Source: Squalus acanthias (lineage: Eukaryota). From it: a stretch of 64,000 nt of DNA. Within the stretch, counting starts at the first letter, position 1. Each line of letters begins with the position of its first letter. The translations under genes and the position numbers were made by a program. The stretch lies in the NCBI GenBank assembly GCA_030390025.1, contig CM059431.1:126358001-126422000 (forward strand), written 5' to 3'. Below are positions 1 to 59,696 of this stretch, one piece after another. The notes beneath the pieces were generated by a model. The model was given only the letters and a program-made list of their open reading frames with translations, was not told where the DNA came from and ran no database searches.

Positions 1-303
1 AGCACATAGCGGTAATTCAAGTCAGTGGGCCGCACAGGACCTTCTGTCCCTTAATGGTATTCACAACAGTTACCCTGTAGTCAATGAGTGGAGAAGCTAC
101 ACGTAACCTTATTTTGAACGAATGCATTGAGACACGTTGAACTATTTACCTGACTTATTCATCCATACACAGAATAGATAAATTGAACTGATGTGGGGAA
201 TAAGTATTCTCAAAGCTAGGACCACATGGGTACAAATAGTTCAATAATTTATTTAAATAAATATGGGAATGACTCTCCACAAAACAATTTTCTTAACTTA
301 AGT

Positions 304-411
304 CTTCCCTACATTACAACAGTGACTACACTTCCAAAGTACTTTATTGGCCATAAAGCGCTTTGGGACGTCCTGAGGTCATGAAAGGCGCTATATGAAC
401 GCAAATTCTTT
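304..411 (+). mobile_element. 3' tail of a Deu-domain SINE / L2-type element (AmnSINE1/SacSINE1-like tail)
   Basis: Sequence ...acttccaaagtactttattggccataaagcgctttgggacgtcctgaggtcatgaaaggcgctatat...(tctt)n matches my recollection of this tail. The (TCTT)n end resumes after 10609. Confidence 0.55.
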
Positions 412-1720
412 GGGGGGAAAATTCGGTTGCTTTGCGTCTCCCGTTAGCGCAAAGCAACTAGTGCCCGGGCGCGGCAATGTTTGCGCCGCTCACAAAATCG
501 ACCAGACATTTTGCGGCGGTGCTAAGCACTACCGCCACGATGTCCTGCGCCCGCAGATCGTGACATCAGTCGAGCGTGCAACGCCCCGGTAGCGCCCCGG
601 ACCGGATATTGAGTGGCGCCCCCTGCCTTACCACCTGCCGCTAGCAACGACAGGTTGAGGGGAGCGTTTGGCAGTCAGAATGGGACTGGGGGAGCGCTAT
701 TTAAAGGCGACCGCTTCCTACCTATTTTTGTCGTCGACATTTTTGCACCATGCATTCTGAGAGAGAGAGAGACTTCTGGAGAGATTCAACGCTGTGTGAA
801 GAAGTTTTGGGTACTGAGTATCAATTTGCAGGTTCATTTTAATTTTCCCTTCCTTGCATCGAAGTAGAAGAGACTTTTTGGGCTGCGCTCTGAGCTCTTT
901 CCCTGGGCCTCTCAATTTTTCTTTCCAGCAGAATTGATGTACAGGTCTCTCCAGGCCGAGATTCAAGGCTGCAATGAGCAGGGTGTGAATGGAGAGCAAG
1001 ATCGACCCTCCCCTTTAAGGACTGGCCGGCGCCAGTGTGTCTCTGTTCCATTGCTGACTGACATCACATGAGCTTCGCCAGCGCTCTGAGGTAGCGCCTC
1101 GCTCCTCGGCGTTAGCGCCTGTAGAATTCGCAATATATCGCGATTTTATTAATAAGGAGAAAACACAGAGTCTCGTTCAAACAGCTTTTATTTCAGCAGA
1201 ATACTGCCAGGTTTTTTCAAAGTGGACACAAGCAGCCTGTAAAATGGCCGCCGCACCTCGTGACAGAACATTCTAGACTTTTCGACAGGCAGACAAGATG
1301 GCGTTCCAATAAACATTTGTGCAAGATCGATTAAGATTCAGCACAGTGAAGATAATACACGAGACATTATGGGTTTACAGTATACACATAAATACTGAAA
1401 TCGGTCTCCCAGGTACGAATGAAAGCTATTGTACCGAGTAATCAGGGGCCCATCCAAAAGACATTAATATGTAAAATCCCAACGACTCTACGATGAGAGA
1501 GCCGTTAGCAGGTAGTTATACAAAACACTTGGAAGCCCCAAAACCCCTCCAGGGAGAACACCGACCGATTTAACAATGGGAGAAATATTAACAGGTACTC
1601 AGACATTTACGAGTAGCCCCGAAACCCATTAAGAACGGAGATCACCCATACAAGACATTTGAGCGCCAGACCCTTACAAAAGAAAGGACATTAAGGTTGG
1701 GCGGGAAACGGAAGATTTTG

Positions 1721-1732
1721 TACTATAATTAC
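1721..1732 (+). promoter_or_regulatory. Candidate LTR TATA box (TATAAT) followed by a pyrimidine-rich initiator region
   Basis: tactataattac lies ~25-30 nt upstream of a pyrimidine-rich stretch. A tataatt motif is also present in the solo LTR (~34385). YY1-like aaaatggccgcc and aagatggcg motifs lie upstream (~1241, ~1296). Confidence 0.45.
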
Positions 1733-2514
1733 AAGCTCCAACCGTCCATCTTTCTCTTATTCTCTTATCCGATCGACTCGTAACCTCGTGGCTGCTCCTG
1801 CGTTTTGACTCGTAGTCTGGTTCCTGTTTGCCTGGTGCCTTTTTGAAAAAAGACTGTTGAACTTTCTGATCCGTTCGGATCTACCTCGTGTGGCGTAACG
1901 AAGACCTATGTTGGTAACTGGCAGCGGAACCAAAGGCCCGAGATGAGATGAGATGAGATGAGATGAGATGAGAAGAGAGGAAGACCATACTCATCGCCAC
2001 GGTCAGTAAATCCCGACCGCGCCTTGAGGTCGAATAGCCAAGTTTTCCTTGCCAGGAAGACTTCTTTGAACTTGCAAGAACGGTTCATCATCGATGATAT
2101 TGACTGAGCTGTGAAACCTGCTCGGAAAAGTACCTGTTAAACCAACCAACACAGATCTTCATCACAGCAGACGGTCCAGCCTGCTAGCCGGAGCAGAAGC
2201 AAGTAAACAAGTGGGACCAGGAGATCTCCTGACCGACACGTGGGTGCTGCGGTGAAAAACATCCGATCAGCTATTCGGAATTTCTCCGAGTTATCACGAG
2301 TGGTGAGCATGAGTCTCGAAATCCTACGAATCTAGTTAGGACAGATATTGATAGGGGAGGGTTTAAGTATTAAGGATACTTGTAATGTGTGCCCCTATTT
2401 ACGGTGTGTCGTTCGTTCCTCGTTTCCCTAGGATCAGCTATATAACTGCTTGTAAGATTGTACTGTCATTAATCTGTGCTTATGACATGTATTTCATAAT
2501 CTTAAATATCATGC

Positions 2515-2520
2515 AATAAA
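2515..2520 (+). terminator. LTR polyadenylation signal AATAAA (functional copy expected at 10212-10217)
   Basis: AATAAA late in the LTR; the solo LTR has one in a comparable context at 35276-35281. Confidence 0.55.
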
Positions 2521-2773
2521 GATTTTCCATTTCGTACCATTCAACCGAGTCTACATGAGTTTCATCTCCATTACTGCTCTCGCATCTAAGTCCAGTGTCT
2601 AGAACCGTAAGGGCGAGTGATTCGAACCACTCACAGGTGTGTCTAGTGCTCCCAGACTGGCTGGAGACCAGAACAGGCAACAAGGCCTAAACCCGCACTG
2701 ACATACAGGCTGCACAGAGCCGCGTGAATCTCACAGGCTGCGAGACACGCAGGGTCAGAATCCCTTACAGAAA

Positions 2774-4582
2774 ATGGTGACCGCGGCAGGACACTGGCAG
2801 CGAGAGGGTAGTGTGTTAGACTTTGGAATGACTGTACGAAATGTTATGCAGGAAAAGATAGCAGATTATGTGTTCGGAAAGGTTAATCTAACTAAGAAAT
2901 GGATAAGTGAATTGTTAGCGGATAAAAGCCCGCTAGAGGCAGCCGAAAGGTGGACAGATAGTAAAGAACATATAAAGACACTCGAGAAAGCAGTCTGGCT
3001 TATGTGTTACAAAAGGCAGGTTCAGATTTCAAACCAGACCATTACAGCGCTAGTAGCTCGAATCAGTCATTTAGAGGGAGAAATGGATGAGAAGGTTTCT
3101 GGAGGGGAAATGCTCATTAGGAATTTAAGTGCGTTGCACCAAGAACGCCAGGAAATCTCCAGTCACCATAAAACAAGGATAGATTATCTCGAGTGCCAGG
3201 TCACTGAGGCAAAGTTAAATGAGAGCAGGTTAAAGGAAAGATGTGCCCGCCAAGCTGCCCAGATAAGAACTCAGGAAGAGAGCTTAACGGGGGTTAGGGC
3301 GGCATATAAGTTGGCCCTTGAGGATAAGTTTCAGGGAGCCGATCATAGCGCCTGCCAAAAAGAGATAGAGCACCTCAAAAAGGCCGTGAACAAAGCGCAC
3401 GGCATGGTGTGCCTTATCAGTCCGTCAGCACACCAGCCGCTAGTAAGTGAGAAGTTTAAGAAATCCCCACCAAGTAAAGCAGAGGAAGTAGTAGCCACTG
3501 CGCCCTCCGCGCCACCCAGCTATTCGGAAACCTGGGTTAGGGAGGAAGCAATGGAAGAAACGAAAGAGCCCATTGAGAAAGAAGTGGAAAAGGGACCGTT
3601 GTATCCAGTAACGGGTATTAAAAGGGGCCCAAACAGAAACGGTGGGGAAGAACCAGGGGATCTCCTCGGACAGCTTGTGTTGCCTCACAGCTCACACCAG
3701 CTGAGAGCTATGATAAATCACGTACGGAAGCTGACCGAGTCAGACGACCCTTCCGTACATTTCAGAGAAGTTGAGCAAGCCGCAGCCATTAACGGCTGCG
3801 ATGATGGGGAAACAGCAAAAATGCTGCTGTTCTCATTAGACAGCTCGGTCCTTCAGTGTCTCTCAGGCGAGAGCAAGAGGGGAACCAAGACTTATGAGGC
3901 ATTAAAGAATGAGGTCCTGGAAGTGTTGGGGGCGAACGATGAAGGTCCGTTTGCTAGAGTGGGACAGACAGTGCAGATGGAGGGAGAACCCCCGAAGGTT
4001 TTTGCCGACAGGCTGTGGCCAGTATATGAGCGCAGCTGTCTAGGTGCGCCCGAACGCGAAGATGTGGAAGGCGCCGGTTTAGCTCATTGGCTTAGGTGCA
4101 TAATAGCCAACAGTTTACCAGCCGTCAGAGAGCAGGCAAAAGCATGGTTTGATCCCAATGACCCCAACATTACGGAAGAGTCGGTCTTGAATCGACTCAC
4201 GTTAGGATATCGCAATATAAGGGGTATGGCAACACGTCCCCTTAAGGGAAAAGTACATGAGGTACGACCCGCAGCCCCGTATCAAAGAGAGTGGCATCAG
4301 GAGGGTAATCGCGCCCCACAGGCAAGTAATGCTTGTTACGGGTGTGGGAAGACAGGGCACTGGCGCAAGCATTGCAGGAACCCTTGGAAAGATTCCAAGG
4401 ATAAAAATCCCGCGGTCCGAGCCCAGGCGCCTGTCCCGGCTAGGGAAGCTAATGCACCCACCCCTCCCGACGACCTCGAAGTAGTGTTAGGAGCCATGCG
4501 CAGTTTATTGAGTGCACATGGAAAGGTGGCGGTTGCAACCGGCCCCGTAGGTGCCGCAGGACCGTCTAATAGTACCCAATGA
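2774..4582 (+). CDS. gag: Gag polyprotein (coiled coil, late domains, capsid-like region, CCHC zinc knuckle)
   Basis: 602-aa intact ORF. PSAPPSY at 3503-3523; capsid-like QMEGEPPKVFADRLW; CYGCGKTGHWRKHC at 4334-4375. The true start could be a downstream Met. Confidence 0.92.
   Translation: MVTAAGHWQREGSVLDFGMTVRNVMQEKIADYVFGKVNLTKKWISELLADKSPLEAAERWTDSKEHIKTLEKAVWLMCYKRQVQISNQTITALVARISHLEGEMDEKVSGGEMLIRNLSALHQERQEISSHHKTRIDYLECQVTEAKLNESRLKERCARQAAQIRTQEESLTGVRAAYKLALEDKFQGADHSACQKEIEHLKKAVNKAHGMVCLISPSAHQPLVSEKFKKSPPSKAEEVVATAPSAPPSYSETWVREEAMEETKEPIEKEVEKGPLYPVTGIKRGPNRNGGEEPGDLLGQLVLPHSSHQLRAMINHVRKLTESDDPSVHFREVEQAAAINGCDDGETAKMLLFSLDSSVLQCLSGESKRGTKTYEALKNEVLEVLGANDEGPFARVGQTVQMEGEPPKVFADRLWPVYERSCLGAPEREDVEGAGLAHWLRCIIANSLPAVREQAKAWFDPNDPNITEESVLNRLTLGYRNIRGMATRPLKGKVHEVRPAAPYQREWHQEGNRAPQASNACYGCGKTGHWRKHCRNPWKDSKDKNPAVRAQAPVPAREANAPTPPDDLEVVLGAMRSLLSAHGKVAVATGPVGAAGPSNSTQ
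2775..2791 (+). promoter_or_regulatory. Primer-binding site (tRNA identity ambiguous: Trp/Leu/Ser-like)
   Basis: TGGTGACCGCGGCAGGA starts 5 nt after the 5' LTR; TGG complements the tRNA CCA end. Confidence 0.6.
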
Positions 4583-5728
4583 CTAGAGCCCACGCAGCCT
4601 GCCTACCTGTGTCCTTTTAAAAGACACGCACAGGAGGGGGTCTGCGGTGAGGAGGCCAGGTTAAAAGAGCAGGCCTTGCGGGAGGAGAACGCCCGCTTAA
4701 TAGGGAAAATAGATGGGCTGGAAGGGCAGCTTAGAGAGCAGGCCCTGCGGGAGGAGAACGCCCGATCAATGGGAAAGTTAGACGTGCTCAGGCTAGAAGC
4801 GCAGCTTAGAGAGATAAAAGCAGCCTGCAGGGTAGCCAAAAGCCGGGAGTATGAGGATGTAAACCAATGCAAACTGTACAAGCCAGGTGCGCAAGGGAAA
4901 ACCACAGGGGTAAACCCCGCCAGTGGGGAAGCACAGCCCCAGGTAGGACCACAAGGCACACAGGCAGGCAAAGCAGCTTGCATCAGGGGAGGGGACATCC
5001 TGGAAGATCATGAAGCATTTTTCTGGGGTTGGGAGTCAGATGAGGGAGAATTCCGGGAACTCGAGTCAGATGAGGATAGTGATGAAGACGAGTGGTTTTG
5101 GAGGAACGGTCCCGTTTTAGATATAGGGAGAATACGGGCTGCAGATAGAGATCTACACAGGGTGGACACACAAGCTGCAGGTCCCGAGGACAGGAGGGAG
5201 GAGCTAGGGGAGGCGGGGCCAGCCGCTGTGGGAGCACAGGGAGTGACGGTGAGGACCCCAGAGACAGAGCCCTCCGCTTTGAACGTCCCGTCCTCGGGGG
5301 AGGCAGAGATCACGAGTGAAGGGCCGCCTGCTGGGCCGAGCAGGGCGGAGCCACAAACTGCGAGCCCCGAGGTTAGGGAGGCGGAGTCAGCGGAGGCGGA
5401 GCCACCGACTGTGGTGGAACCCCAGGTCGTCCCGATGGAAGTCTCGGAACCCGGTCCGTCAGTCACGGAACCACCGCCCATGGCAACTCCCCGTAGGTCA
5501 AGTAGAGAACCCCAGCCCAGGAGGATGTGGTCATGTCCCCAGACTGCCCCAAGGCGTAGACTTAAGGTTAAGGCAACCCAGATACAGCCCGGCCCCATCG
5601 CAGCAGCAACAGGCTGCGGCAGATCAGAGGAAGGAATCAGTGCAGCAACAGGCTGCGGCAGATCAAAGGGAAGGGTCAGTGCCCTCCCACCGTCGGGAAG
5701 AGCTCGCAGCAGCCTTCTCAGAATTTAA
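4583..5728 (+). CDS. In-frame post-gag ORF (probable Gag readthrough extension); coiled-coil + acidic + Pro/Glu-rich; occupies the pol position
   Basis: After gag TGA the frame stays open (CTA GAG CCC ... TTG CGG GAG GAG at 4676 ...) until TAA at 5726-5728. No DTG/DSG protease, YxDD RT or HHCC/DDE integrase motifs. Confidence 0.7.
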   Translation, partial: LEPTQPAYLCPFKRHAQEGVCGEEARLKEQALREENARLIGKIDGLEGQLREQALREENARSMGKLDVLRLEAQLREIKAACRVAKSREYEDVNQCKLYKPGAQGKTTGVNPASGEAQPQVGPQGTQAGKAACIRGGDILEDHEAFFWGWESDEGEFRELESDEDSDEDEWFWRNGPVLDIGRIRAADRDLHRVDTQAAGPEDRREELGEAGPAAVGAQGVTVRTPETEPSALNVPSSGEAEITSEGPPAGPSRAEPQTASPEVREAESAEAEPPTVVEPQVVPMEVSEPGPSVTEPPPMATPRRSSREPQPRRMWSCPQTAPRRRLKVKATQIQPGPIAAATGCGRSEEGISAATGCGRSKGRVSALPPSGRARSSLLRI

Positions 5729-6017
5729 AGGGGCCGCCCTGAGAACGGGCGGCACTGTATAGTAATAAGTTTTAAGTTTTAAGTTCATAGTTCAAGGTTA
5801 AGTTTATAGTTTTAAATCAGGTTAAGTTTGTAGTTTAATTCTAACAGAAAACGGTAAAATGATGGGAGCTTTAGAGATAGGTTTAGTTAAAATTTATTCA
5901 GCGAACGTTGAAGTTTACGTGAGGCGAGGTCAGGGGACCCGCTCACCCTTCACAGAAGCCAGAGACTCTTGCGAGGCTGGCTACCTCATTCTATCTGATC
6001 ACAGGAACCAAGGAAGG

Positions 6018-8365
6018 ATGGAACGAATTCTAGTATTGCTCGCGGCAATCGGATGTGGATTGGCCTATCGAGGCCGCACCAAGGATGTCGTGGTGTTTGG
6101 ATGTTCCGGGGACACGGCCCCCATCGCGGTGGATGGGACCGGAAGACGGGAGGCAGAGGAGACCAGCACCTATTTCCACAAGGGAAGGTGGCCAGGATGG
6201 CTGGGAACGAACTCAACGGAGTATTCTAGCACATCGGGGTTTGCCTACAAAGAGACTTCTTTAATGTGCCCCAAAGTAAGGATCATCGCACCCAGGATCA
6301 GCGTCACCGTCGGCAAATGGATTTGTTTGACTTGTAGTGGGAATGTCCCATTGAGCCGATGGTGGTGGCTGCGAAAGCTGAGCAAAACTATGAGGAACTC
6401 TTCGGTCGAGTGGGAACGACTGGGTAATAATACCCATCGGACAATTACGGGGACAAACGGACAAGTGAAAGTCTGTTGGGACAAATGGTGGGAACCGGAC
6501 GAGGGAATTTATGTATGTATGTGGGGGTCAAAGTACGTTTGCCCCAAAGGCATCTCCATATTTTTCATTAATCAATGGCAGGATAACGGACAGGGGATGA
6601 GGTGGGATGCGAGCACCAGGGGGTGCGGAGCCCCATTCTCCCCGATCCCAGTAAATGCCACTGAGCTCATTACGCGCCCACGCAAAGCCCCGCCCACAAT
6701 TCCGGTGGTTCTAGCTGAGGAAGAAGGGTGCCCTAAAACTAGTAAGGGACCCGGGAATGGTTTGGTACTGGTCCCCACAGACCAGATACTATTTCAGGGG
6801 GTACATTACGCGGTGGCCTCGGTGATTTTAAATCTCACCGAGGTGCGGTTACCAGAGTGGTGCCCCAAAAAGACGGAACAGTTGTATCAGGTCCTGTTGA
6901 CCAAGATGTTCAGACAATTTTACGAATTCGATTTCGCGGAAATTGATAAAACAAGTTTGTACACCGCACCACAGGAAGTTTTGGATCAAGTAGGGAGGCA
7001 AAGAAGGGGTTTGGTGAACGATGCGTTCACTGCTTTTAACACGGGTACATCTGTGGTCAACGCTCTAGACAGTGTGGAGCTGCAGACCCAGATTAATGGT
7101 CTAAAAACGCAATTTAATGACATTCTAACAGATGAGAATAAAGTGGTAGGGTCGGGTCTACACGAGGACCAAGCCATGACTCTCCATTTAAAGGAAATTA
7201 TAGCAGAGTTGGAGAAACATGCAAAGACGGTAAATGCCCTGATTAGGGAAGATCGGAATGCATCCAATCAAGCTGCGCAGAACGAGGTATGCTTTACGGG
7301 GCGTGGTTACTGGGCGAGGGCCGCAGTAATTTGGAGGATTTAAAACAAGGTTTGGTCCCGTCCTGGATAAGTAACAAACACCTGCGGGCGCTCCACCCTT
7401 TTCAGAACGCATTAAGTCCGTGCCAGCTCAGGCTAGCTTCAGAAGCTTACCCAGTCCCCGTGGACTGCGGACGATCAAACCATACTATTATGGGAATAGT
7501 ATTACACATGCCGGTTTTGGGCGACACAGCAAAGCCCGCCCCGGTGTATCGGGTAGAGAACATTGGTGTCATTCAGGGGGGAGCCCACATTCGTTATGCA
7601 GCGGTTCCACCTTACGTCATCCGCTGGGAGCAAACGATGACAGGTACAGATCTCTCTGGTTGTCGTGGCAGGGGAGCACACATAATACTGTGCCCCCAGC
7701 ACTTGAATGCCTTTTTAACACCACAGTGCGGGTTCAGAACGACTGGCGCCAAGTCCATGAATTGCACCATGGAGGCAATGGCACAAGATCATGTGCCTCC
7801 GCAGGTAGCATACATCGGGGGTGGAACATATTGTGTTACCACTGCAGCGCAACACTACCAGCATGGAAACCGTAGCCGGTGTCCGGTGAGTGACAGCAGT
7901 TTCTGTTTTAAACCCAGGGCGGAAGTTCAAGTAGCACAACAGCGAATCATCCCAATCCCTGAACCATCCACTGTTCATCTCACAGTAAAAGAGAATTTCA
8001 CCGACTTGCAGCGATTCGTCGCGCATTTCGGATACCTCATTCCCCCTCTCCCTGAACACCTCACCAAGCTTTTAAAAGCCGTCGCGGTATCACAGAAACA
8101 TTTTTACACATTAGAACAGAAAACTGTCGAAATAGGAACAGACATTGTGGATATAGTAATTCCACCGTGGTGGAATCTGTTCACCAATATTGAAGTGCCT
8201 TCATGGATCAGAATAGCCTCCCACATTTTAGTCGTATGTCAAGTGTTTATTGTAGTGTACCTATTGGTCGTACATTGTAAAAGAGACAAACGCCTCACCA
8301 AGCATGAAAACACGGGAGAATGGCGAGAACGTTACGTGCGCGTGCACGAAGAAAGCACCGTGTAA
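6018..8365 (+). CDS. env: Envelope glycoprotein: signal peptide, Ig-like domain, furin-cleaved class I fusion protein, TM, short tail; one -1 frameshift between 7247 and 7343
   Basis: MERILVLLAAIGCGLA signal peptide; LTC...W...DEGIYVC Ig signature; RQRR|GLVNDAFTAFNTGTSVVNAL then heptads; Cys-rich region and TM (WIRIASHILVVCQVFIVVYLLVVHC) in ORF 7289-8365; ~782 aa if rejoined. Confidence 0.85.
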
Positions 8366-8805
8366 TCGGATAATGGCGTCATTCCCGCTCGCCACGTGCG
8401 CCGCGGAAGTTTGTACTCGATCATGATTTTCAAAGATTGTAAATACGTTTGGGAACTCGACATGTTTTAAGAGTTGGTGTTGATTATTTTGGTGATGGTG
8501 TTACAGTTAAAAATGATTGTTTGGTTTTGGGTTTGTTTTTCCTCTCCCTGAATAAAAGATGAATATACAGGTGATACGAGAGGCATCGGCCTGGTTACGC
8601 CGGGAAGGAAAACAAGTGGTGTAAGTTTAAGGGCAAATAAAGGCCCACGGTGATATAAAATGTAATTTTCTTGGGAAATAAGGACGACACATAGACCCTA
8701 GCTAGGTTAAAATTATGGGATTAATTTGCTGGATTCGGAGAGAAATCGAGATAATATTGCTCACCACTATGATTTTTGATACGATAAGCGGAGTTATTCG
8801 CATCA

Positions 8806-8816
8806 ACGGGAGGGAC
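8806..8816 (+). promoter_or_regulatory. Polypurine tract
   Basis: acgggagggac immediately before the TG of the 3' LTR. Confidence 0.7.
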
Positions 8817-10466
8817 TGTAGAATTCGCAATATATCGCGATTTTATTAATAAGGAGAAAACACAGAGTCTCGTTCAAACAGCTTTTATTTCAGCAGAATA
8901 CTGCCAGGTTTTTTCAAAGTGGACACAAGCAGCCTGTAAAATGGCCGCCGCACCTCGTGACAGAACATTCTAGACTTTTCGACAGGCAGACAAGATGGCG
9001 TTCCAATAAACATTTGTGCAAGATCGATTAAGATTCAGCACAGTGAAGATAATACACGAGACATTATGGGTTTACAGTATACACATAAATACTGAAATCG
9101 GTCTCCCAGGTACGAATGAAAGCTATTGTACCGAGTAATCAGGGGCCCATCCAAAAGACATTAATATGTAAAATCCCAACGACTCTACGATGAGAGAGCC
9201 GTTAGCAGGTAGTTATACAAAACACTTGGAAGCCCCAAAACCCCTCCAGGGAGAACACCGACCGATTTAACAATGGGAGAAATATTAACAGGTACTCAGA
9301 CATTTACGAGTAGCCCCGAAACCCATTAAGAACGGAGATCACCCATACAAGACATTTGAGCGCCAGACCCTAACAAAAGAAAGGACATTAAGGTTGGGCG
9401 GGAAACGGAAGATTTTGTACTATAATTACAAGCTCCAACCGTCCATCTTTCTCTTATTCTCTTATCCGATCGACTCGTAACCTCGTGGCTGCTCCTGCGT
9501 TTTGACTCGTAGTCTGGTTCCTGTTTGCCTGGTGCCTTTTTGAAAAAAGACTGTTGAACTTTCTGATCCGTTCGGATCTACCTCGTGTGGCGTAACGAAG
9601 ACCTATGTTGGTAACTGGCAGCGGAACCAAAGGCCCGAGATGAGATGAGATGAGATGAGATGAGATGAGAAGAGAGGAAGACCATACTCATCGCCACGGT
9701 CAGTAAATCCCGACCGCGCCTTGAGGTCGAATAGCCAAGTTTTCCTTGCCAGGAAGACTTCTTTGAACTTGCAAGAACGGTTCATCATCGATGATATTGA
9801 CTGAGCTGTGAAACCTGCTCGGAAAAGTACCTGTTAAACCAACCAACACAGATCTTCATCACAGCAGACGGTCCAGCCTGCTAGCCGGAGCAGAAGCAAG
9901 TAAACAAGTGGGACCAGGAGATCTCCTGACCGACACGTGGGTGCTGCGGTGAAAAACATCCGATCAGCTATTCGGAATTTCTCCGAGTTATCACGAGTGG
10001 TGAGCATGAGTCTCGAAATCCTACGAATCTAGTTAGGACAGATATTGATAGGGGAGGGTTTAAGTATTAAGGATACTTGTAATGTGTGCCCCTATTTACG
10101 GTGTGTCGTTCGTTCCTCGTTTCCCTAGGATCAGCTATATAACTGCTTGTAAGATTGTACTGTCATTAATCTGTGCTTATGACATGTATTTCATAATCTT
10201 AAATATCATGCAATAAAGATTTTCCATTTCGTACCATTCAACCGAGTCTACATGAGTTTCATCTCCATTACTGCTCTCGCATCTAAGTCCAGTGTCTAGA
10301 ACCGTAAGGGCGAGTGATTCGAACCACTCACAGGTGTGTCTAGTGCTCCCAGACTGGCTGGAGACCAGAACAGGCAACAAGGCCTAAACCCGCACTGACA
10401 TACAGGCTGCACAGAGCCGCGTGAATCTCACAGGCTGCGAGACACGCAGGGTCAGAATCCCTTACA
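8817..10466 (+). repeat. 3' LTR
   Basis: Copy of 1120-2769; the only difference I spotted is T1675 vs A9372. Confidence 0.97.
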
Positions 10467-11051
10467 CGCCTTAAGAGAGGTGTGTAGTGCCTGATTTAGC
10501 GCTGCAATCACCTCCAGGGGTGATAGAAGCCAAGTTTGCAGTCGGAGGCTAAACTTTGCGCCCAACCGATAATTGCGTCCCAAACGGGGCGATACCGAAT
10601 TTCCCCCCCTTTCTTTCTTATTACCAGTATAGATTTGTAGATGTCACAATCCATAGGTTAATGATCAGCACAAATAGTGATTGAAACCCAACAGGCAGAA
10701 TGTGTATATGTGTATAATTAATTAACACCCACCACTTTGACCAGTATAAACTTTATAGAGCTTGGGAAATGCATGCACTGGAATTAACCTAGCTTCAGTC
10801 CAAGGTTTTTGAAAAATTTGCCTACTACAGGGATTTTGGAAATTTTTGCACAATGGTTAGCCACTTGAGATGGCTGAGTGAGAGGCAGATATTTTTATGT
10901 CATTGTGCTGGTGACATTGTATGTATGGTGATTGCTAGTGAAGACAGGAAACCCTGTTGTGTCTAAGATGTTGCTAACATAGAATGACCAGAGGACCCAT
11001 TCCACAGAACTCTAAATGTCCAATAATTTTAAATAAAGAGAACACCCTGTA

Positions 11052-18030: not shown

Positions 18031-20522
18031 CACTTGGAAGAAGCACTGAGAGTAGCAAGGGCACAGAATGTAGACATGATGGGGACTTCAATGTTTATCA
18101 CCAAGAGTGGCTCGGGAGCACCACTACTGGCCGAGTCCTGAAGGACATAACTGCCAGTCTGGGCCTGCGACAGGTGGTGAGTGAACCAACAAGAGGGAAA
18201 AACCTACTTGACCTTGTCCTCAGCAATCTACCTGTCGCAGATGCATCTGTCATGACAGCATTGGCAGCAGTGACCACCGCACAGTAATTGTGGAGACAAA
18301 GTCCCATCTTCACACTGAGAACACCCTCCATCGTGTTGTGTGGCACTACCACCGTGCTAAATGGGATAGATTCAGAACAGATCTAGCAGCTCAAAACTGG
18401 GCATCCTTGAGGCGCTGTGGGCCATCAGCAGCAGCAGAATTGTATTCCACCACAATCTGTAACCGGCATATCCCTCACTCTACCATTACCACCAAGCCAG
18501 GGGACCAACCCTGGTTCAACAACGAGTGTAGAAGAGCATGCCAGGAGCAGCACCAGGCGTACCTAAAAATGAGGTGCCAACCTGGGGAAGCTGCAACACA
18601 GGACTACATGCATGCTAAAAAGTGGAAGCAGCATGCTATAGACAGGGCTAAGCGATTCCACAATCAACGGATCAGATCAAAGCTCTGCAGTCCTGCCACA
18701 TCCAGTCGTGAATGGTGGTGGAACATTAACAACCAACGGGAGGAGGAGGCTCCAAGAATATTCCCATCCTCAATGATGGTAGAGCCCAGCACATGAGTGC
18801 AAAAGACAAGGTTGAAGCGTTTGCAACCAACTTCAGCCAGAAGTGCCGAGTGGATGATTCATATCGGCCTACTCCCGGGGTCCCCACCATCAGAGAAGCC
18901 AGCCTTCAGCCAATTCGATTCACTCCATGTGATATCAAGAAATGGCTGAGCGCACTGAATACAGCAAAGGCTATGGGCCCCGACAACATCCCGGCTATCG
19001 TGCTGAAGACTTGTGCTCCAGAACTAGCCGCACCTCTTGCCAAGCTGTTCCAGTACAGCTACAACACTGGCATCTATCCGACAATGTGGAAAACTGCCCA
19101 GGCATGTCCTGTCCACAAAAAGCAAGACAAATCCAACCCGGCCAATTACCGCCCCATCAGTCTACTCTCAATCATCAGCAAAGTGATGGAAGGTGTCATC
19201 GACAGTGCTATCAAGCGGCACTTACTCATCAATAACCTGCTCACTGATGCCCAGTTTGGGTTCCGCCAAGACCACTCAGCTCCTGACCTCATTACAGCCT
19301 TGGTCCAAACATGGGCAATGGAGCTGAATTCCAGAGGTGAGGTGAAAGTGACTGCCCTTGACATCAAGGCAGCATTTGACCGAGTCTGGCATCAAGGAGC
19401 CCCAGTAAAACTGAAGTCAATGGGAATCAGGGGGAAAATACTCCACTGGCTGGAGTCATACCTAGAACAAAGGAAGATGGCTGTGGTGGTTGAATGTCAA
19501 TCATCACAGCCCCAGGACATCGCTGCAGGAGTTCCTCAGGGCAGTGTCCTAGGCCCAACCAACTTCAGCTGCTTCATCAATGACCTTCCCTCCAACATAA
19601 GGTCAGAAATGGGGATGTTCGCTGATGACTACACAGTGTTCAGCGCCATTCGCAACTCCACAGATAATGAAGCAGTCCATACCCGTGTGCAACAAGACCT
19701 GGACGACATTCAGGCTTGGGCTGATAAGTGGCAGGTAAAATTCGCGCCACAGAAATGCCAGGCAATGACTATCTCCAACAAGCGAGAGTCTAACCACATC
19801 CCCTTGACATTCAATGGCATTACCATCGCCAAATCCCCCACTATCAACATCCTGGCGGTCATCATTAACCAGAAACTTAACTGGACCAGCCACATAAATA
19901 CTGTGGCAGCAAGAGCAGCTCAGAGGCTAGGTATCCTGCGGCGAGTGTCTCACCTCCTGACTCCCCAAAGCCTTTCCACCATCTACAAGGCACAAGTAAG
20001 GAGTGTGATGGAATACTCTCCACTTGCCTGGATGAGTGCAGCTCCAACAACACTGAAGAAGCTCGACACCATCCAGGACAAAGCAGCCCGCTTGATTGGC
20101 ACCCCATCCACCACCTTAAACATTCACTCCCTCCACCATCGGCGTACCGTGGCTAGAGTGTGTACCATCTACAAATGCACTGCAGCAACTCGCCAAGGCT
20201 TCTTCGGCAGCACCTCTCAAACCCGCAACCTCTTCCACCTAGAAGGACAAGGGCAGCAGGCACATGGGAACACCACCACCTCCAAGTTCCCCTCCAAGTC
20301 ACACACCATCCTGACTTAGAAATATATCGCCGATCCTTCATCGTCGCTGGGTCAAAACCCTGGAACTCCCTACCTAACAGCACTGTGGGAGTACCATCAC
20401 CACACGGACTGCAGCGTTTCAAGAAGGCGGCTCACCACCACCTTCTCAAGGGCATCTAGGGATGGGCAATAAATGCTGGCATTGCCTGCGACGCCCTGAT
20501 CCCATAAACGAATAAAAACAAA
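18031..20522 (+). mobile_element. CR1-group LINE (endonuclease C-terminus + RT), frameshifted
   Basis: PTRGKNLLDLVLSN, PWFN, NYRPISLLS, QGSVLGP, FADD; tail aataaaaacaaa. Confidence 0.92.
18793..20319 (+). pseudogene. Non-LTR reverse transcriptase (ORF2 fragment)
   Basis: 508-aa ORF with RT motifs; separated from upstream and downstream ORF2 parts by frameshifts. Confidence 0.9.
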
Positions 20523-27895: not shown

Positions 27896-30800
27896 TCAAC
27901 AGTTTGCCTAGAAATCTGTTTATTATAACAATTCAAGGATGGCTTGTCAAAAATCAATACAACAGAACACCCAAGTGACTACCCTTGTGACTACTTGTGA
28001 TTTATCTTCCTCTTACGCATGCTTCTATGTGATGCTTCCCCTGTGGCTTCAGCAGATGTGGAGGCCCCTTGCTCACTTTCTTGCTGCTCCTGTCTTGACA
28101 CCTTTGGCGGGCATCGTTTGGGGTTGCGAACCTGTGAGGGCTCAGCAACAGTCTGCTACTCCTGCGGCTGTGCTGGGGCTGAGACGACCATCTCAGTTGG
28201 GTGAGGACTCTGGTGGGGCTCTGACCGAGGGCTTTGCAGTGGCATGGTCGTGTGAGTGCTTGGAGAGGAGCCCCCACTTCCTTGTTGTCTGCCGCCAACA
28301 TCCCTCTCATGGGTCAGCCCCACTTCAGAGCTAGCAAGTGGCTGGACAGCACCTTGCTGCACTGCAGGGGGTCTGTGAGGACCCGTTTCTGCACTGAAAG
28401 TCCTACTCAAGAGGACTTCCATGAAGGTCAGGTTTGTTTGCTCAATAGCTGACCATCGCTCCTCCAGAGATGTCATTCTATTCTGAACAATTACCATGTT
28501 TTCATACCCGGGTGACTAAACTCCTCCATGGCCATAGTCCTCCTCTCCTCTACCGTAGCCATCCTCTCCTCTACGGTAGCCAGCCTTACCAGGGAGTAAG
28601 CCATCCTTCCACGGAGGTTGCCATCCTTTCCGTGGTGATGCGTTCATGCGCCAATGCCTCCACCAAGGCTCTGCTCATGTTCGCAATGGTCTCCTCCATT
28701 CGCTCCACACTCGCAGCGACCCTGGAGACAAAACCTGCCAGAGACTCCTGCACCTGTTCCTGGAGTTCCAGCACCGCTCTCCTTCTGGATAAACCCAGAG
28801 GCACAGGGTCGACATGCAGCTGAGCCGAGCTGGCAGAGTCCTGCGCCCTCCGATGAGGACTCTCCACTGCTGTCCCTGTCTCCACCATCTGCTGATGCTC
28901 ACTTGTGAGCTGTGATACACCAGGTGACAACACTACTCTATCTCGCGAAGGTCCCACCGAAGTGTGAGTGTCTGCGCTGGTGCTGGGTGTGCTGAATTCT
29001 GCTGACGCTGCGCCCTCAGAGGTTGCAGCTTCCTCTGAGGAGTCTGGGGGCTCAGGTTGTTCCTCCTGGACAGTGGGGACGGGGGCTTTCGATGGTCCTG
29101 TGGGGGAGTAAAGGAAAGAGTTAGAGATGTGTGGTAAACGTTGCATGCACATTAAATTGTGCAGATGATAAGTCAATCTGTTCGAGCATCAGATTCATTA
29201 TCAGTCACTCATGCAATGTCAATGAGAGAGATACTAAACTATTCTGTCACCAGCTTGCTGTGATGCGCCCGTCTTTCCATCCCCCACTTGCGAATCGTCC
29301 TCCACTCCGACGATCTCCAGGGCCGCCTCCTCCGAGGTGGTGAGCTGGGCTACTGAGGGTGGCCCTCCTCCTGTCCTCGCTCTTTCCTTCTTATTGTGGG
29401 TTCTCTTTTCCTGCAATGAGGGACACAAGTGGAGTTTGAGTGAGAATGAAGGAGTGAGTGTAGAGAATCCGTAGCATAGATGCTTAGAAGGAGACAAAGG
29501 GCCCTCCCTGTGTGTTGTAAGTTGTTATCATTGCCTCACAGTGATAGGGCGTGTGAGGGCTGCATGGCCGAATAATTAAGTGAATGCGCCCATTGAGAGA
29601 GAGAGGGAATGGGTAAGAGTGCAGAGATTTAAGGGTCAAGTGGGATGTGGAGGAAGAGGTTGGCAAAGCAGAGTGCTGGTGATGAGAGGCGATGGGGATC
29701 AGATTGAGGGTGATGGGAATGTCATACCCTGTGTGGAGAAGGTCATGAAACTTCTTCCTGCACTGCAGCCAGGTTCTGCAGCACATAGAAATTGCGTTTA
29801 CCTCTTGGGCCACTTGCAGCCACACAGCTTTAGTCTGCTGGGGAGGCCTTTTCCTACCTGAGGAAGGGAAGAGCACCTTCTTATTTGCTCTTGCTCCCTC
29901 CACCAGATCTTGGAGGGAGGCCTCATCGAATCTTGGAGCACACTTTGGTCGACTGGTGGACATAGTTGCTGAAGGGACCACTCAGAACAATGGGCATAAA
30001 GTTTAAAGGCTGTAAAAGAAGCAAGGCTGCTTGCAGGCCTTAAATCCAACAGCATTGATGACGTCATCGGAGGCGACCTTCTGTATGAAAAGGCTCATTG
30101 GGCCAGGGGTTTCCACACGCTGGAAATCAAGTGCCCAATTAGGGCAAAATCGCACTTTTGTCCACTTCACATCGGAGTCGGGATCCTGACACGACGACCA
30201 CCTGACATGCCCCCAACCCGCCCCAATGGCAAAATCAAGTCCTCTGTGTCTCTGAATCACTGGGAGTCGTCAGGTTGGTTGTGAGGCGTAGGCTCAATAG
30301 GGCTTTCTTAGCAGGGTGTTTGAGTGCTCCAGCGTTGATTTTCCTGCGGCATTGCTTCTGTTGCCGCTGCTGTTTTGGGGCTACGTTGATGGAGATGAGA
30401 GAGTGGATTAGGCGGTGGTCTGTCCAGCAGTCGTCAGCTCCTGTCGTGGCATGGGTGATGTGGACGTCCTTGCGGTCTCTCGCTCGGACAATGACGTAGT
30501 CCAGCAGATGCCAGTGCTTGGAGCAAGGGTGTTGCCATGAAGCCTTGTACTTGTCTCTCTGATGGAACAAGGTGTTGGTTATGACAAGGCCATGTTCTAA
30601 GCATTTCGTTCGGAGGAGTGTACCGTTGGAGTTGGCTTTCCCTACCCCCTCTCTGCCGATCACACCTCCCCAGAGGTCTGTGTCCTTTCCAACTCTGGCG
30701 TTGAAGTCGCCAAGGAGGATCAGCTTATCGCCCGTTGGGACTCGGGACAGGGATTGTTCGAGGCTGGAGTAGAATTCCTCTTTGGTCTGGTCTGTTGCTT

Positions 30801-31439
30801 CCAGTGTTGGGGCGTACGCACTGATGACCGTAGCGCACAGGTTCTGGGCTAGGCTGAGCCGTAGAGTCATGAGTAGTTCGTTTATTCCACAAGGGGAGTC
30901 TCTGAGACGTTCAACTAGCTCATTTTTTATGGCGAAGCCTACCCCATGGAGGCGGCGTTCTTCTTCAGGCTTGCCTTTCCAGAAGAAGGTGTAGCCACCG
31001 CCTTGCTCTTGAGCTGGCCTTCCCCTGCCCGGCGGGTCATGCTTAGGGCAGCGATGTCTATGTCGAAATGTCTGAGCTCCCGGGCAATGATAGCAGTACA
31101 GCGTTCTGGTCTGTCGCTGTTGGGATTGTCCATGAGGGTCCTGACGTTCCAGGTCCCGAATTTCATTTTAAAGGGTGGAAGATGCCTGTGTGTGAATTCT
31201 TTTAACGTGCGGTGGCCGTTGCACACCAGCTACCACACGGGCTTGACAGAGCAAGATCTTGGTCCAATGGCAAGGGGATCCAAGACGATTGGAGACCAGG
31301 CTCTGCGACATCGGCCTAGCACACACACACAAACATACTCCTACTGTCCTCCTCCTTCCTTCCCGCAGGTCCTCTCTGCCTGGGTTTCATAGGCTGCAGT
31401 GTGGTCCTCCCGACCTCGCTGCTGGTCCATGCTGTGCCA

Positions 31440-58640: not shown

Positions 58641-59201
58641 GAGGCTCTAGACGAAAGGAAGAAGAGAATTGCTCACGTGTGTCAACCATCTGACCGATCG
58701 GATCGGTATCAGCTTCTTGCCACAGTCGTATGTTTTTGCTGTATAACTAATGTGTTATATTCCGTATTAAACTCTGATTAAACAAAGACACAAAAGTTTT
58801 AAATGAAGTCTTATATAAGTTAAGAGTTTTAAAAATAAATTTTTAAAAACGGGTTTTGACCATTTGGAGTAGTATAGCAACTGTGGGTGTGTACAAGGCA
58901 TATTTAGGTATCTATCTGTGAAAATGAAAGTTTAAAAATGAACTGTTTACGTTTCAAAAAGTTTTAAAGATGAAAATGAGTAAGTAAGTAAGTATGTATG
59001 TATGTATGTATGAATTTATGAAAATGTTACAGTTTTGGAAAATCAGCTAGGGCCGTGTGGCGGGTAGATGTGTTCCCAAGCTGATAGCGCACGTATCCCA
59101 CCATAGCCTGACCTGATTTTATAGCCACTCACTTAACTAAAGTTACTTTAACAACTATTTCCATTTCTTCATTAAACTTTCAGTTTGAGGAGGAAGCCTG
59201 T

Positions 59202-59696
59202 GTGAGAGAAAGATGCCCTTTTGCAATCGTCCTCCGTAACTCTGACTTATATGGCGTCCTCAACGCATTGCCTCCAGGATCCGCATGGATATTGGGCGAC
59301 AAGGGCTACCCGCTAAGACCATGGCTGATGACTCCCTACCGCAAGACCAATAATGAGGCTCAGGAGAGATACAACCAGGCACACGTGTCCACACGGCAAG
59401 TGGTGGAGAGGACAATTGGAGTTCTGAAATCACGCTTCCGGTGCCTGGACAGGTCAGGGGGGACCTTGCAGTATTCTCCTCAGAAAGTGGCAAAGATTGT
59501 GGTGGCCTGTTGTGCTTTGCATAACTTTGCCCTGCAGGAAGGACTGACCCTTAACGCTGCAGATGAACTACCTGCAGAAATGGAGGACGTGGACAATGCC
59601 AATGTGCCTGTGGGAAGGCATGATGGGGAAGAGCCAACTGCTGCTCAAAGTAAGGCTGCTCGGGAGCAGCTGGTAGCCAACACCTTCACGAGGTAG
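59202..59696 (+). pseudogene. Harbinger transposase C-terminal fragment
   Basis: [17 protein letters not shown]...YNQAHVSTRQVVERTIGVLKSRFRCLD...ACCALHN; N-terminal half absent. Confidence 0.88.

What the first reader, a model, noticed from the sequence alone, without database searches (positions are those of the whole stretch)
1120..10466. Young pol-less but enveloped LTR element (gag - readthrough ORF - Ig/F-type env): candidate helper-dependent retrovirus-like system
Seen: complete cis elements (LTRs, PBS, PPT, 4-bp TSD), an intact Gag with budding motifs and a nearly intact fusion Env, but no protease, RT, RNase H or integrase. The pol slot holds an unrelated open ORF rather than decayed pol. 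Knowledge: as I recall, lokiretroviruses (Wang and Han 2021) are retrovirus relatives whose Env resembles Mononegavirales fusion proteins, reported from lampreys, bony fish, amphibians and reptiles. Inference: this element keeps particle-forming and entry genes while borrowing enzymes from a helper, possibly as half of a complementing gag-env / gag-pol pair, in a probable chondrichthyan host.
Basis: partly seen in the sequence, partly recalled or inferred. Interest (0 to 1): 0.92.

Follow-up and report, generated by a model that had tools for sequence, protein, structure and literature searches.

The report
Pol-deleted enveloped retrovirus copy, amplified family
This is a very young copy of an endogenous retrovirus that has lost its enzyme gene but kept its shell and envelope genes. 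It belongs to a lineage of about a thousand such copies that must have spread using the enzymes of complete relatives in the same cartilaginous-fish-like genome.

Summary
Window 1120-10466 is a 9,347-bp LTR provirus with 1,650-bp LTRs differing at 1 base. It has a 4-bp target duplication (CGCC), a PBS for tRNA-Arg(UCG), a PPT, an open gag with PSAP/PPSY/LYPV and CCHC motifs, and an env broken only by a private 4-bp deletion. No PR, RT, RNase H or IN is present.

It is not a one-off. The same genome holds full-length gag-pol-env relatives, 98-99% identical, in which 3,619 bp of pol stand where this copy has a 244-bp unrelated filler. The rest of the "post-gag ORF" is the in-frame C-terminal tail of Pol.

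The pol-less junction occurs 1,107 times and the gag-pol junction 2,121 times. Seven of 8 pol-less copies examined have their own 4-bp duplications, so they integrated independently.

Gag and env of pol-less copies show strong purifying selection (pN/pS 0.26 and 0.10). Pol-less and full-length copies are intermixed on the gag tree, which points to recombination.

Env has a paramyxovirus-F-like fold. Pol architecture and nearest relatives fit lokiretroviruses, which the founding paper does not mention in cartilaginous fishes.

Verdict: an amplified, trans-complemented, pol-deleted derivative, a new variant of a known kind.

The parts
1116..1119 (+). 5' copy of the 4-bp target-site duplication (CGCC)
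   Evidence: matches 10467-10470
1120..2769 (+). 5' LTR (TG...CA, 1,650 bp). Candidate TATA box at 2439 and AATAAA at 2515; the U3/R/U5 limits are inferred only.
2775..2792 (+). Primer binding site for tRNA-Arg(UCG): 17 Watson-Crick pairs plus 1 G.U in this copy
2774..4582 (+). gag, open, 602 codons plus TGA. The start codon is not settled (ATGs at 2774, 2828 and 2846). Late-domain motifs at 3503-3523 and 3599-3610; CCHC at 4334-4375.
4580..4586 (+). gag stop in the context TGA-CTAG, a context reported to favour readthrough. It is conserved in 20 of 20 copies read.
   Evidence: passage of 10.1101/2021.04.18.440353
4583..4614 (+). gag-pol linker, homologous to full-length copies. It carries 4 differences fixed in 8 of 8 pol-less copies and absent from 12 of 12 pol-bearing copies.
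4615..4858 (+). 244-bp filler that replaces 3,619 bp of pol (PR-RT-RH-IN). It keeps the frame and is predicted helical or coiled-coil-like. Its origin is unknown.
4859..5728 (+). C-terminal tail of the Pol ORF: the last strand of the integrase SH3-like domain plus a 280-aa acidic, proline-rich tail, in frame with the filler
6018..8365 (+). env, an F-like class I fusion glycoprotein. Signal peptide from 6018, RQRR cleavage site at 6996-7007, TM segment at 8204-8272. The frame is broken by a private 4-bp deletion at about 7288.
8808..8815 (+). Polypurine tract GGGAGGGA
8817..10466 (+). 3' LTR
10467..10470 (+). 3' copy of the target-site duplication (CGCC)

Best explanation
The element is a non-autonomous, pol-deleted derivative ('PL') of a full-length gag-pol-env endogenous retrovirus family ('FL', LTR spacing about 11.07 kb) in the same genome. 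The family is lokiretrovirus-like, with an F-fold Env.

A single ancestral event replaced 3,619 bp of pol with a 244-bp unrelated stretch. That event left intact the LTRs, the PBS, the leader and gag, the TGA-CTAG gag stop, the Pol C-terminal tail, env and the PPT.

PL RNA therefore keeps every cis signal needed for packaging, reverse transcription and integration. Protease, RT/RNase H and integrase must come in trans from Gag-Pol of FL copies expressed in the same cell.

Shown:
- the structure;
- the shared junction in about 1,100 loci;
- independent integrase-type insertions with 4-bp duplications;
- concurrent youth of PL and FL copies;
- purifying selection on gag and env;
- intermixing of PL and FL on the gag tree.

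Inferred:
- FL copies are the helper;
- PL and FL RNAs are co-packaged and recombine, which would explain both the intermixing and the selection signal in PL gag and env;
- spread involved Env-dependent reinfection of germline cells.
For: Structure. FL copies align to element positions 1-3495 and 3740-9347, with 3,619 bp between them. That insert is one 1,501-codon frame carrying gag-asp_proteas/RVP, RVT_1, RT_RNaseH_2, RNase_H, Integrase_H2C2 and rve.

Abundance. The PL junction 28-mer, allowing up to 2 mismatches, has 1,107 hits (control 0). The FL gag-pol 28-mer has 2,121 hits (control 0). All 40 of 40 scored hits of a 721-bp query span both PL junctions at 97-100% identity, on many contigs.

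Transposition. Seven of 8 PL copies have two LTRs and distinct 4-bp duplications (CGCC, CGTG, GATA, TTTT, GGCA, ACAT, GTGT). Their LTR-LTR mismatches are 1, 0, 2, 6, 9, 5 and 2. All 4 of 4 FL copies have 4-bp duplications, with LTR mismatches of 4, 9, 0 and 2.

Helper capacity. One of 4 FL copies read in full has gag, pol and env frames all uninterrupted.

Selection, pairwise among PL copies. pN/pS is 0.26 for gag, 0.10 for env, 0.63 for the Pol tail and 1.8 for the filler. Env segregating sites among the 8 PL copies are 69 synonymous and 25 non-synonymous, and 71 of 94 lie at third positions.

Intermixing. In a gag tree of 8 PL and 12 FL copies, the tree with the PL copies held together is rejected (delta lnL 108.8, p-AU 5.5e-64). 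Starred PL+FL pairs appear. A gag + tail + env matrix of 8 PL and 4 FL copies gives p-AU 0.0087.

Single origin. The filler is identical across copies, and 4 linked differences are fixed in 8 of 8 PL copies and absent from 12 of 12 FL copies.
Against: - No expression or particle data exist. No run on record as RNA was found.
- Trans-complementation is inferred from gene content, not shown.
- A pure parasite is not expected to keep gag and env under selection. The recombination explanation fits but is not proven. Ectopic gene conversion between genomic copies would also intermix PL and FL.
- With only 4 similarity-picked FL copies, single-gene tests did not reject a PL clade (p 0.064 for gag, 0.27 for env). 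Tests of gag/env incongruence were not significant.
- The sampled copies are few (8 PL and 12 FL, out of about 3,200) and were partly chosen by similarity to the window.
- Pairwise sums over copies count shared changes more than once.
Confidence: 0.85

Rival explanations
1. Mutualistic two-component system. PL genomes are selected to supply most Gag and Env (cis-preferential packaging or dosage), and FL genomes mainly supply Gag-Pol. On this view PL is a partner or satellite whose own gag and env are needed for its spread. This is.
For: - Strong purifying selection on gag (0.26) and env (0.10) among PL copies, even for private changes (0.29 and 0.15), while the filler is unconstrained.
- Env is uninterrupted in 4 of 8 PL copies and gag in 5 of 8.
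- PL makes up about a third of junction-bearing copies.
Against: - FL copies carry their own gag and env, so no complementation by PL is required.
- Intermixing of PL and FL on the gag tree lets recombination import selected gag and env into PL without any cis need.
- Half of the PL copies read, including the window copy, have a broken env yet still integrated.
Confidence: 0.12
2. The Gag readthrough product (Gag-linker-filler-Pol tail) is itself functional. It could interfere with or regulate helper particles, or be a host-co-opted restriction factor, and the frame-preserving replacement would then be selected.
For: - The replacement keeps the frame: 244 and 3,619 are both 1 mod 3.
- The ORF is open in 7 of 8 PL copies.
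- The TGA-CTAG context is conserved in 20 of 20 copies.
Against: - The filler gives pN/pS of about 1.1-1.8 (10 non-synonymous against 2 synonymous sites), and the tail 0.55-0.89.
- Frame retention has a one-in-three prior.
- The copies are too young for an open frame to carry weight.
- No homolog of the filler was found.
Confidence: 0.05
3. PL copies multiplied without reverse transcription (segmental or tandem duplication), or this locus is an assembly collapse.
For: Some PL copies stand in tandem arrays that share LTRs, for example three junctions 7.72 kb apart on contig C1.
Against: - Seven of 8 PL copies have different flanks and different 4-bp duplications.
- Hits lie on many contigs.
- Contigs from four other public runs bridge both junctions.
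Confidence: 0.02

Closest known systems
Lokiretroviruses (Wang and Han, Mol Biol Evol 2021, PMC7947760; passages and section 5 read)
   Same: - LTR-gag-pol-env layout.
- Pol with a degraded RNase H ('tether') plus a second RNase H.
- Env with signal peptide, basic cleavage site, fusion peptide, coiled coil and TM, related to paramyxovirus and pneumovirus F.
- Nearest named Pol relatives come from amphibians, coelacanth, ray-finned fishes and a lizard, which are the host classes of that paper.
   Different: - The Env here has no Pfam PF00523 hit even at E 10. The likeness shows only in the fold.
- The paper's main text never mentions cartilaginous fishes or sharks (0 occurrences).
- No RT tree with named lokiretrovirus references could be built here.
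- No smc-like gene was recognised.
BHIKHARI Bik-1 / Bik-2 of zebrafish (bioRxiv 10.1101/2024.03.25.586437; passages read)
   Same: Non-autonomous families described there as endogenous relatives of the lokiretrovirus clade. They have a Gag of about 600 aa with an N-terminal coiled coil, recent activity and near-identical copies.
   Different: - Bik-2 is stated to encode gag but neither pol nor env, and the Bik-1 consensus holds a single long ORF (Gag).
- The element here keeps env as well and lacks only pol.
- Its autonomous partner is 98-99% identical and present in the same genome.
Cattle ERVK[2-1-LTR] C-type / D-type elements (Nat Commun 2024, PMC10924933; abstract read)
   Same: An autonomous ERV together with abundant non-autonomous derivatives mobilised in trans. 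The authors propose these derivatives as 'parasite-of-parasite' elements.
   Different: - The D-type elements are described as lacking functional genes. Here gag and often env stay open and are under purifying selection.
- The retroviral lineage and the host class differ.
Mouse IAP I-delta-1, ETn/MusD and koala recKoRV (recalled, no paper read here)
   Same: Deleted or recombinant ERV derivatives that keep cis signals and out-multiply, or ride on, complete helpers. In recKoRV the internal region is replaced by foreign sequence.
   Different: - As I recall, those lose env or most coding capacity.
- None is a clean pol-only replacement that retains both gag and an F-type env.
Env-carrying Ty3/gypsy errantiviruses with F-type Env (Chary and Hayashi, bioRxiv 10.1101/2023.10.26.564294; abstract read)
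   Same: LTR elements with a paramyxovirus-F-like envelope and many near-identical copies. Baculovirus F proteins are among the fold hits here.
   Different: - That survey covers invertebrate metazoans.
- The Pol here has the added RNase H (PF00075) seen in its vertebrate relatives, not in the plant and invertebrate gypsy hits.

Membership tests
LTR provirus (integrated retrovirus or LTR retroelement) | Two near-identical LTRs ending TG...CA, flanked by a short target duplication | tested here: met
   1,650-bp LTRs with 1 mismatch; TSD CGCC
LTR provirus (integrated retrovirus or LTR retroelement) | A tRNA primer binding site next to the 5' LTR and a polypurine tract next to the 3' LTR | tested here: met
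   The PBS matches a tRNA-Arg(TCG) gene of this genome. The PPT is GGGAGGGA.
Non-autonomous, trans-complemented ERV derivative | Lacks RT and IN while autonomous relatives with the same LTRs exist in the genome | tested here: met
   No enzyme domains in the window copy. FL copies 98-99% identical carry PR-RT-RH-IN.
Non-autonomous, trans-complemented ERV derivative | The defective form itself has integrated repeatedly: same internal lesion, different insertion sites and duplications | tested here: met
   1,107 junction hits. Seven of 8 copies have distinct 4-bp TSDs.
Non-autonomous, trans-complemented ERV derivative | Mobilisation by helper proteins demonstrated | not testable with these tools
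   Needs expression or mobilisation data. No run on record as RNA was found.
Lokiretrovirus | RT groups with named lokiretroviruses, sister to canonical retroviruses | not tested
   No named reference sequences were available to the tools. Indirect evidence only: the nearest named relatives and the PDB matches (Ty3 1e-71, XMRV RT 9e-69, foamy PR-RT 1e-63) fit a position between gypsy elements and retroviruses.
Lokiretrovirus | Degraded RNase H (tether) between RT and a second RNase H | tested here: met
   RT_RNaseH_2 / RT_RNaseH at residues 465-597 and RNase_H (PF00075) at 645-788 of the FL Pol
Lokiretrovirus | Env with sequence similarity to fusion glycoprotein F0 (PF00523) | tested here: not met
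   No PF00523 hit at E up to 10. None of the 31 aligned relatives hits it; 1 of 31 hits Baculo_F at E 0.0011.
Lokiretrovirus | Env with the paramyxovirus/pneumovirus F fold | tested here: met
   Foldseek against PDB: hPIV3 F at 4.1e-10, then RSV, Langya and NDV F, probability 1.00. TM-scores are low (0.26-0.51) and rmsd high. The BFVD hits are listed.
Canonical foamy or epsilon retroviruses | Pol closest to those genera | tested here: inconclusive
   No named canonical retrovirus appears among the best 120 Pol relatives. The integrase's best PDB match is PFV IN at 3.9e-33. Env fold hits include WEHV-1 and WDSV Env and foamy gp130.
Retroviral Gag | Capsid fold plus a nucleocapsid zinc knuckle | tested here: inconclusive
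   A CCHC motif is present, with weak NC hits at E about 0.1. Language-model neighbours are Retrotrans_gag / Ty3_capsid clusters (0.92, 177 shared features). The single-sequence fold was too poor (pLDDT 41.6) to search with.

The most novel reading that the evidence does not exclude
A still-replicating, possibly infectious, lokiretrovirus-like virus population in cartilaginous fishes exists as two genome types. One is a complete gag-pol-env form. The other is a pol-less gag-env satellite that makes up a third of all insertions. The satellite keeps its own capsid and F-type envelope genes under purifying selection because it needs them in cis, or supplies them to the partnership. That would make it a natural two-component retrovirus rather than a simple defective parasite.
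Probability: 0.15. Interest if true: 0.8.

Novelty: new variant of a known kind. Interest (0 to 1): 0.58.

Why it matters
Defective ERVs that ride on complete helpers are known, but the described cases have lost env or nearly all coding capacity. Here a clean pol-only replacement has reached about 1,100 copies beside about 2,100 pol-bearing ones. Some copies have LTR pairs with no differences at all.

Gag and an F-fold Env remain under strong purifying selection, and there are signs of exchange with the helper lineage. This gives a natural system for three questions:
- what a helper-dependent retroviral genome must keep;
- how parasite-of-parasite dynamics shape ERV expansions;
- whether germline spread here is Env-dependent.

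It also places a lokiretrovirus-like family with a paramyxovirus-F-like envelope in a host group that the founding paper does not mention. The family is large: about 34 Mb, roughly 0.9% of the 3.7-Gb assembly, if every junction-bearing copy were full length. That figure is my arithmetic and is an upper bound.

Tried and rejected
- Origin of the filler. BLASTN and tBLASTx against the rest of the window and one FL copy found nothing beyond the flanks. A protein search of ORF residues 1-100 scored nothing at E 0.1 among proteins of 209-667 aa. Longer and shorter proteins were not searched.
- Sequence-level Env assignment. Pfam gave nothing. PDB gave nothing by sequence. A profile of 31 relatives had foamy gp130 as its best PDB hit, at E 0.022, which is not significant.
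- Gag fold. The single-sequence AlphaFold2 model had pLDDT 41.6, too poor for a fold search.
- Ig-like N-terminal domain of Env. Only weak hits, and the model has low confidence there.
- RNA evidence. No RNA holder is listed. The four runs laid are contigs of uncertain kind, so nothing can be said about transcription.
- Recombination tests with the first small sample. A PL clade was not rejected by gag alone (p 0.064) or env alone (p 0.27). Cross-tests of gag and env clades were not significant. Rejection came only with the concatenated matrix and with 8 further FL copies.
- An unbiased second sample of PL gag regions could not be fetched.
- Earlier scan notes: none exist for this genome or these words.
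- Literature. A full-text search for 'lokiretrovirus' together with cartilaginous, shark or Chondrichthyes found one paper, which mentions lokiretroviruses only as missed by its screen. A search on ERVs in elasmobranchs found nothing specific. Supplementary files of the lokiretrovirus paper, which may list host species, were not read.
Full report
OBSERVATION

The window holds a complete LTR provirus at 1120-10466. BLASTN of the two halves aligns 1119-2769 with 8816-10466, 1,651 bp with one mismatch (1675 T against 9372 A) and no gap. Read from the TG, the LTRs are 1120-2769 and 8817-10466 and end in CA. The four bases on either side are CGCC (1116-1119 and 10467-10470).

Five bases after the 5' LTR stands TGGTGACCGCGGCAGGAC (2775-2792). 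A pattern made of a T-arm plus the complement of this site has 402 matches in the genome against 0 for the control. ARAGORN calls the genes at two of these places tRNA-Arg (anticodon tcg). The gene read at L041 ends ...GAGTCCTGCCGCGGTCG. With CCA added, the site is an 18-nt PBS with one G.U position in this copy. Ten of the 11 other copies read there are fully complementary, and L045 and L047 each carry one other change. GGGAGGGA (8808-8815) precedes the 3' LTR.

The internal region has three parts.
- An open gag at 2774-4582, with PSAPPSY at 3503-3523, LYPV at 3599-3610 and CX2CX4HX4C at 4334-4375.
- An in-frame open reading frame at 4583-5728.
- An env from the ATG at 6018 to the stop at 8365, in two frames.

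Against two copies whose env frame is uninterrupted, the window lacks 4 bases at about 7288. This deletion is absent from all 11 other copies read at that point. Pfam finds no protease, RT, RNase H or integrase in the four ORFs. The one exception is the 'Ig' domain of Env, which rests only on hits at E 0.45-0.8 and a low-confidence fold.

WHAT IT IS

The genome that holds the window is 3.71 Gb in 3,882 contigs. The LTR query gave 40 of 40 scored matches at 97-100% identity. LTR pairs lie either about 7.7 kb or about 11.07 kb apart.

Four of the longer copies were fetched. They align to the window element over positions 1-3495 and from 3740 on. In place of element positions 3496-3739 (window 4615-4858, 244 bp) they carry 3,619 bp. 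In one of them this is part of a 1,501-codon frame with these domains:
- gag-asp_proteas / RVP;
- RVT_1 (E 7e-36);
- RT_RNaseH_2 / RT_RNaseH;
- RNase_H (1.5e-19);
- Integrase_H2C2;
- rve;
- an SH3-like integrase end.

That frame runs on into the sequence that the window has at 4859-5728. So 290 of the 381 codons of the 'post-gag ORF' are the C-terminal tail of Pol, in its own frame. The first 11 codons are the gag-pol linker. Only the 244-bp filler is foreign. It has no similarity to the rest of the full-length element and no protein relative among proteins of 209-667 aa.

Gag ends in TGA followed by CTAG in all 20 copies read. Pol is in the same frame, so Gag-Pol is presumably made by readthrough. 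UGA CUAG is cited as a readthrough-favouring consensus in a passage of 10.1101/2021.04.18.440353.

THE POL-LESS FORM IS A LINEAGE, NOT AN ACCIDENT

- The filler alone gives 40 of 40 scored matches at 99-100%.
- A 721-bp query across both junctions gives 40 of 40 matches that span it, at 97-100%, on many contigs.
- Exhaustive pattern counts with up to 2 mismatches give 1,107 places for the pol-less (PL) 5' junction and 2,121 for the full-length (FL) gag-pol junction. Both controls are 0.

Eight PL copies were read in full: the window, L033 and L043-L048.
- Seven have both LTRs and their own 4-bp duplications (CGCC, CGTG, GATA, TTTT, GGCA, ACAT, GTGT).
- Their LTR-LTR mismatches are 1, 0, 2, 6, 9, 5 and 2.
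- One lacks its 5' LTR.
- One sits inside the filler of another PL copy.

All 4 of 4 FL copies also have 4-bp duplications, with LTR mismatches of 4, 9, 0 and 2. Both forms have therefore been inserted by an integrase, over the same recent period.

State of the frames in the 8 PL copies:
- gag open in 5;
- readthrough ORF open in 7;
- env uninterrupted in 4;
- all three open in 2.

State of the frames in the 4 FL copies:
- one has all frames uninterrupted;
- one has a TAG five codons after the gag TGA;
- one has a frameshift in pol;
- one has a 1.24-kb insertion in the Pol tail and a 4-bp deletion in env.

Contigs of four other public runs, under four coded organism labels, bridge both PL junctions. 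They also show loose ends of the FL form. This rules out a mis-assembly peculiar to this genome. Whether these runs are RNA is unknown.

SELECTION AND EXCHANGE

Pairwise Nei-Gojobori sums among PL copies give pN/pS of 0.26 for gag, 0.10 for env, 0.63 for the Pol tail and 1.8 for the filler, where changes are few.

Counting segregating codons among the 8 PL copies gives the following.
- env: 69 synonymous and 25 non-synonymous changes, 71 of 94 at third positions. The ratio is 0.03 for shared and 0.15 for private changes.
- gag: 0.18 for shared and 0.29 for private changes.
- filler: 10 non-synonymous against 2 synonymous changes.

Most differences between copies thus arose in lineages where Gag and Env had to work, that is, before integration.

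A purely trans-complemented parasite should not need its own gag and env. The trees offer the simplest answer. With 8 PL and 12 FL gag sequences (8 of the FL taken in positional order, not by similarity), PL and FL copies are intermixed. Two PL+FL pairs are starred. The best tree that keeps the PL copies together is 108.8 log-likelihood units worse (p-AU 5.5e-64). A gag + tail + env matrix of 8 PL and 4 FL copies gives p-AU 0.0087.

Earlier, smaller tests were not significant. The junction itself looks single-origin: the filler is the same everywhere, and 4 differences in the 32 nt before it are fixed in 8 of 8 PL copies and absent from 12 of 12 FL copies. PL and FL genomes must therefore have exchanged gag and env sequence.

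Recombination in virions that package one RNA of each kind would do this, and it is the expected behaviour of retroviruses (established knowledge). Ectopic gene conversion in the genome cannot be excluded.

KIND OF RETROVIRUS

Env. The 783-aa natural open frame from one FL copy (P0001) has named relatives only in a skate (75% identity) and a sawshark (54-59%). It has 50 relatives in the 1.84-billion-protein library.

An AlphaFold2 model built on 31 sequences has mean pLDDT 60.8, with residues 235-650 mostly at 70-95. Its best PDB matches are paramyxovirus and pneumovirus F proteins: hPIV3 F at 4.1e-10, then RSV, Langya, NDV, PIV5 and Nipah F. Probability is 1.00, but TM-scores are low (0.2-0.5) and rmsd is large. 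The likeness is therefore one of local fold order, not of one rigid conformation.

Against predicted viral structures, the best matches are these:
- glycoproteins of invertebrate mononegaviruses (8.5e-14);
- a fish filovirus;
- walleye epsilonretrovirus Env (9.8e-12);
- baculovirus F proteins (9.4e-11);
- paramyxovirus F0;
- feline foamy virus gp130 (2.1e-4).

An RQRR site followed by a hydrophobic stretch and long helices, together with a C-terminal TM segment, fits a class I fusion protein.

Pol. It has the gypsy-type RT-linked RNase H remnant plus a second RNase H. Its nearest named relatives with the same Pfam set come from amphibians (43-46%), coelacanth (40%), ray-finned fishes, a lizard and catsharks (29-30%). 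After these come plant gypsy elements that lack the second RNase H. No named canonical retrovirus is among the best 120. PDB matches are about equally strong to Ty3 (1.4e-71), XMRV/MLV RT-RNase H (9e-69) and foamy PR-RT (1e-63).

All of this fits the lokiretroviruses of Wang and Han (PMC7947760, section 5 and passages). [quoted passage not shown] Their main text does not mention cartilaginous fishes.

Membership is probable but not shown. No RT tree with named references was possible, and the sequence match to PF00523 that they report is not found here.

Gag. Neighbours by protein-language features are Retrotrans_gag / Ty3-capsid clusters (0.92). Its fold could not be predicted with confidence.

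COMPARISON AND NOVELTY

Helper-dependent ERV derivatives are well known.
- Zebrafish Bik-1 and Bik-2 are non-autonomous relatives of the lokiretrovirus clade. Bik-2 is stated to encode gag but neither pol nor env, and the Bik-1 consensus holds a single Gag ORF (10.1101/2024.03.25.586437, passages).
- Mouse IAP I-delta-1, ETn/MusD and koala recKoRV are further cases (recalled, not read here).

What differs here:
- a clean pol-only replacement that keeps both gag and an F-type env;
- the signal of purifying selection on these two genes;
- the scale, about 1,100 copies against about 2,100;
- the host group.

I rate it a new variant of a known kind.

The bolder reading, that PL needs or supplies its own Gag and Env, remains open at low probability.

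LIMITS
- No expression data.
- Few copies sampled: 8 PL and 12 FL for gag.
- PL copies were picked among the best matches to the window's junction.
- Pairwise sums are not independent.
- The host is inferred only from the nearest named proteins.
- The supplements of the lokiretrovirus paper were not read.

Noticed in passing
window 18730-20319 (+), 30235-31167 (-), 41336-42043 (+), 53616-54821 (-), 59112-59696 (+): The rest of the window is rich in transposable elements. There are three RVT_1 ORFs, one endonuclease-RT ORF (LINE-like) and a DDE_Tnp_4 (Harbinger/PIF-like) transposase fragment. No host gene was recognised.
   Followed up: partly
G000 contig C26, about 38.99-42.22 Mb (L042 and the list): tRNA-Arg(TCG) genes, the primer tRNA of this family, stand in long tandem arrays with a period of about 1,623 bp. 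A tRNA-Ser(GCT) gene lies in the same unit. The T-arm plus acceptor pattern has 402 hits genome-wide.
   Followed up: partly
L040 (G000:C3:94123937-94129148): Two LTR copies lie 2,564 bp apart. They are separated by 916 bp of a satellite with a unit of about 35 bp, and there is no internal retroviral sequence.
   Followed up: partly
G000:C1:143657453-143673613: Three pol-less junctions are spaced 7.72 kb apart on one strand. This indicates a tandem array of pol-less elements that share LTRs.
   Followed up: no
L044 (G000:C2462:316098-325644): A pol-less copy is inserted, with TSD TTTT, exactly at the start of the filler of another pol-less copy.
   Followed up: partly
L038 8527-9768 (G000:C13): One full-length copy carries an extra 1.24 kb inside the Pol tail. 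The insert was not identified.
   Followed up: no
gag tree, loci L051, L053, L054, L055, L056: Five of the 8 positionally sampled full-length copies form an older subfamily made up only of FL copies. It is separated from the group that contains every pol-less copy by starred branches of 0.013-0.026 changes per site.
   Followed up: partly
protein P0040: A 5,014-aa protein in the public library has 16 stretches resembling Env residues 21-89 (E 7.7e-10). The N-terminal Env module may be a repeat domain shared with a host or other giant protein.
   Followed up: no
window 5859-6017: In-frame ATGs (MMGALE...) lie about 52 codons upstream of the hydrophobic MERILV start of env. One relative (P0006) has a 56-aa extension there. 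Env may therefore start earlier, with an N-terminal leader.
   Followed up: no
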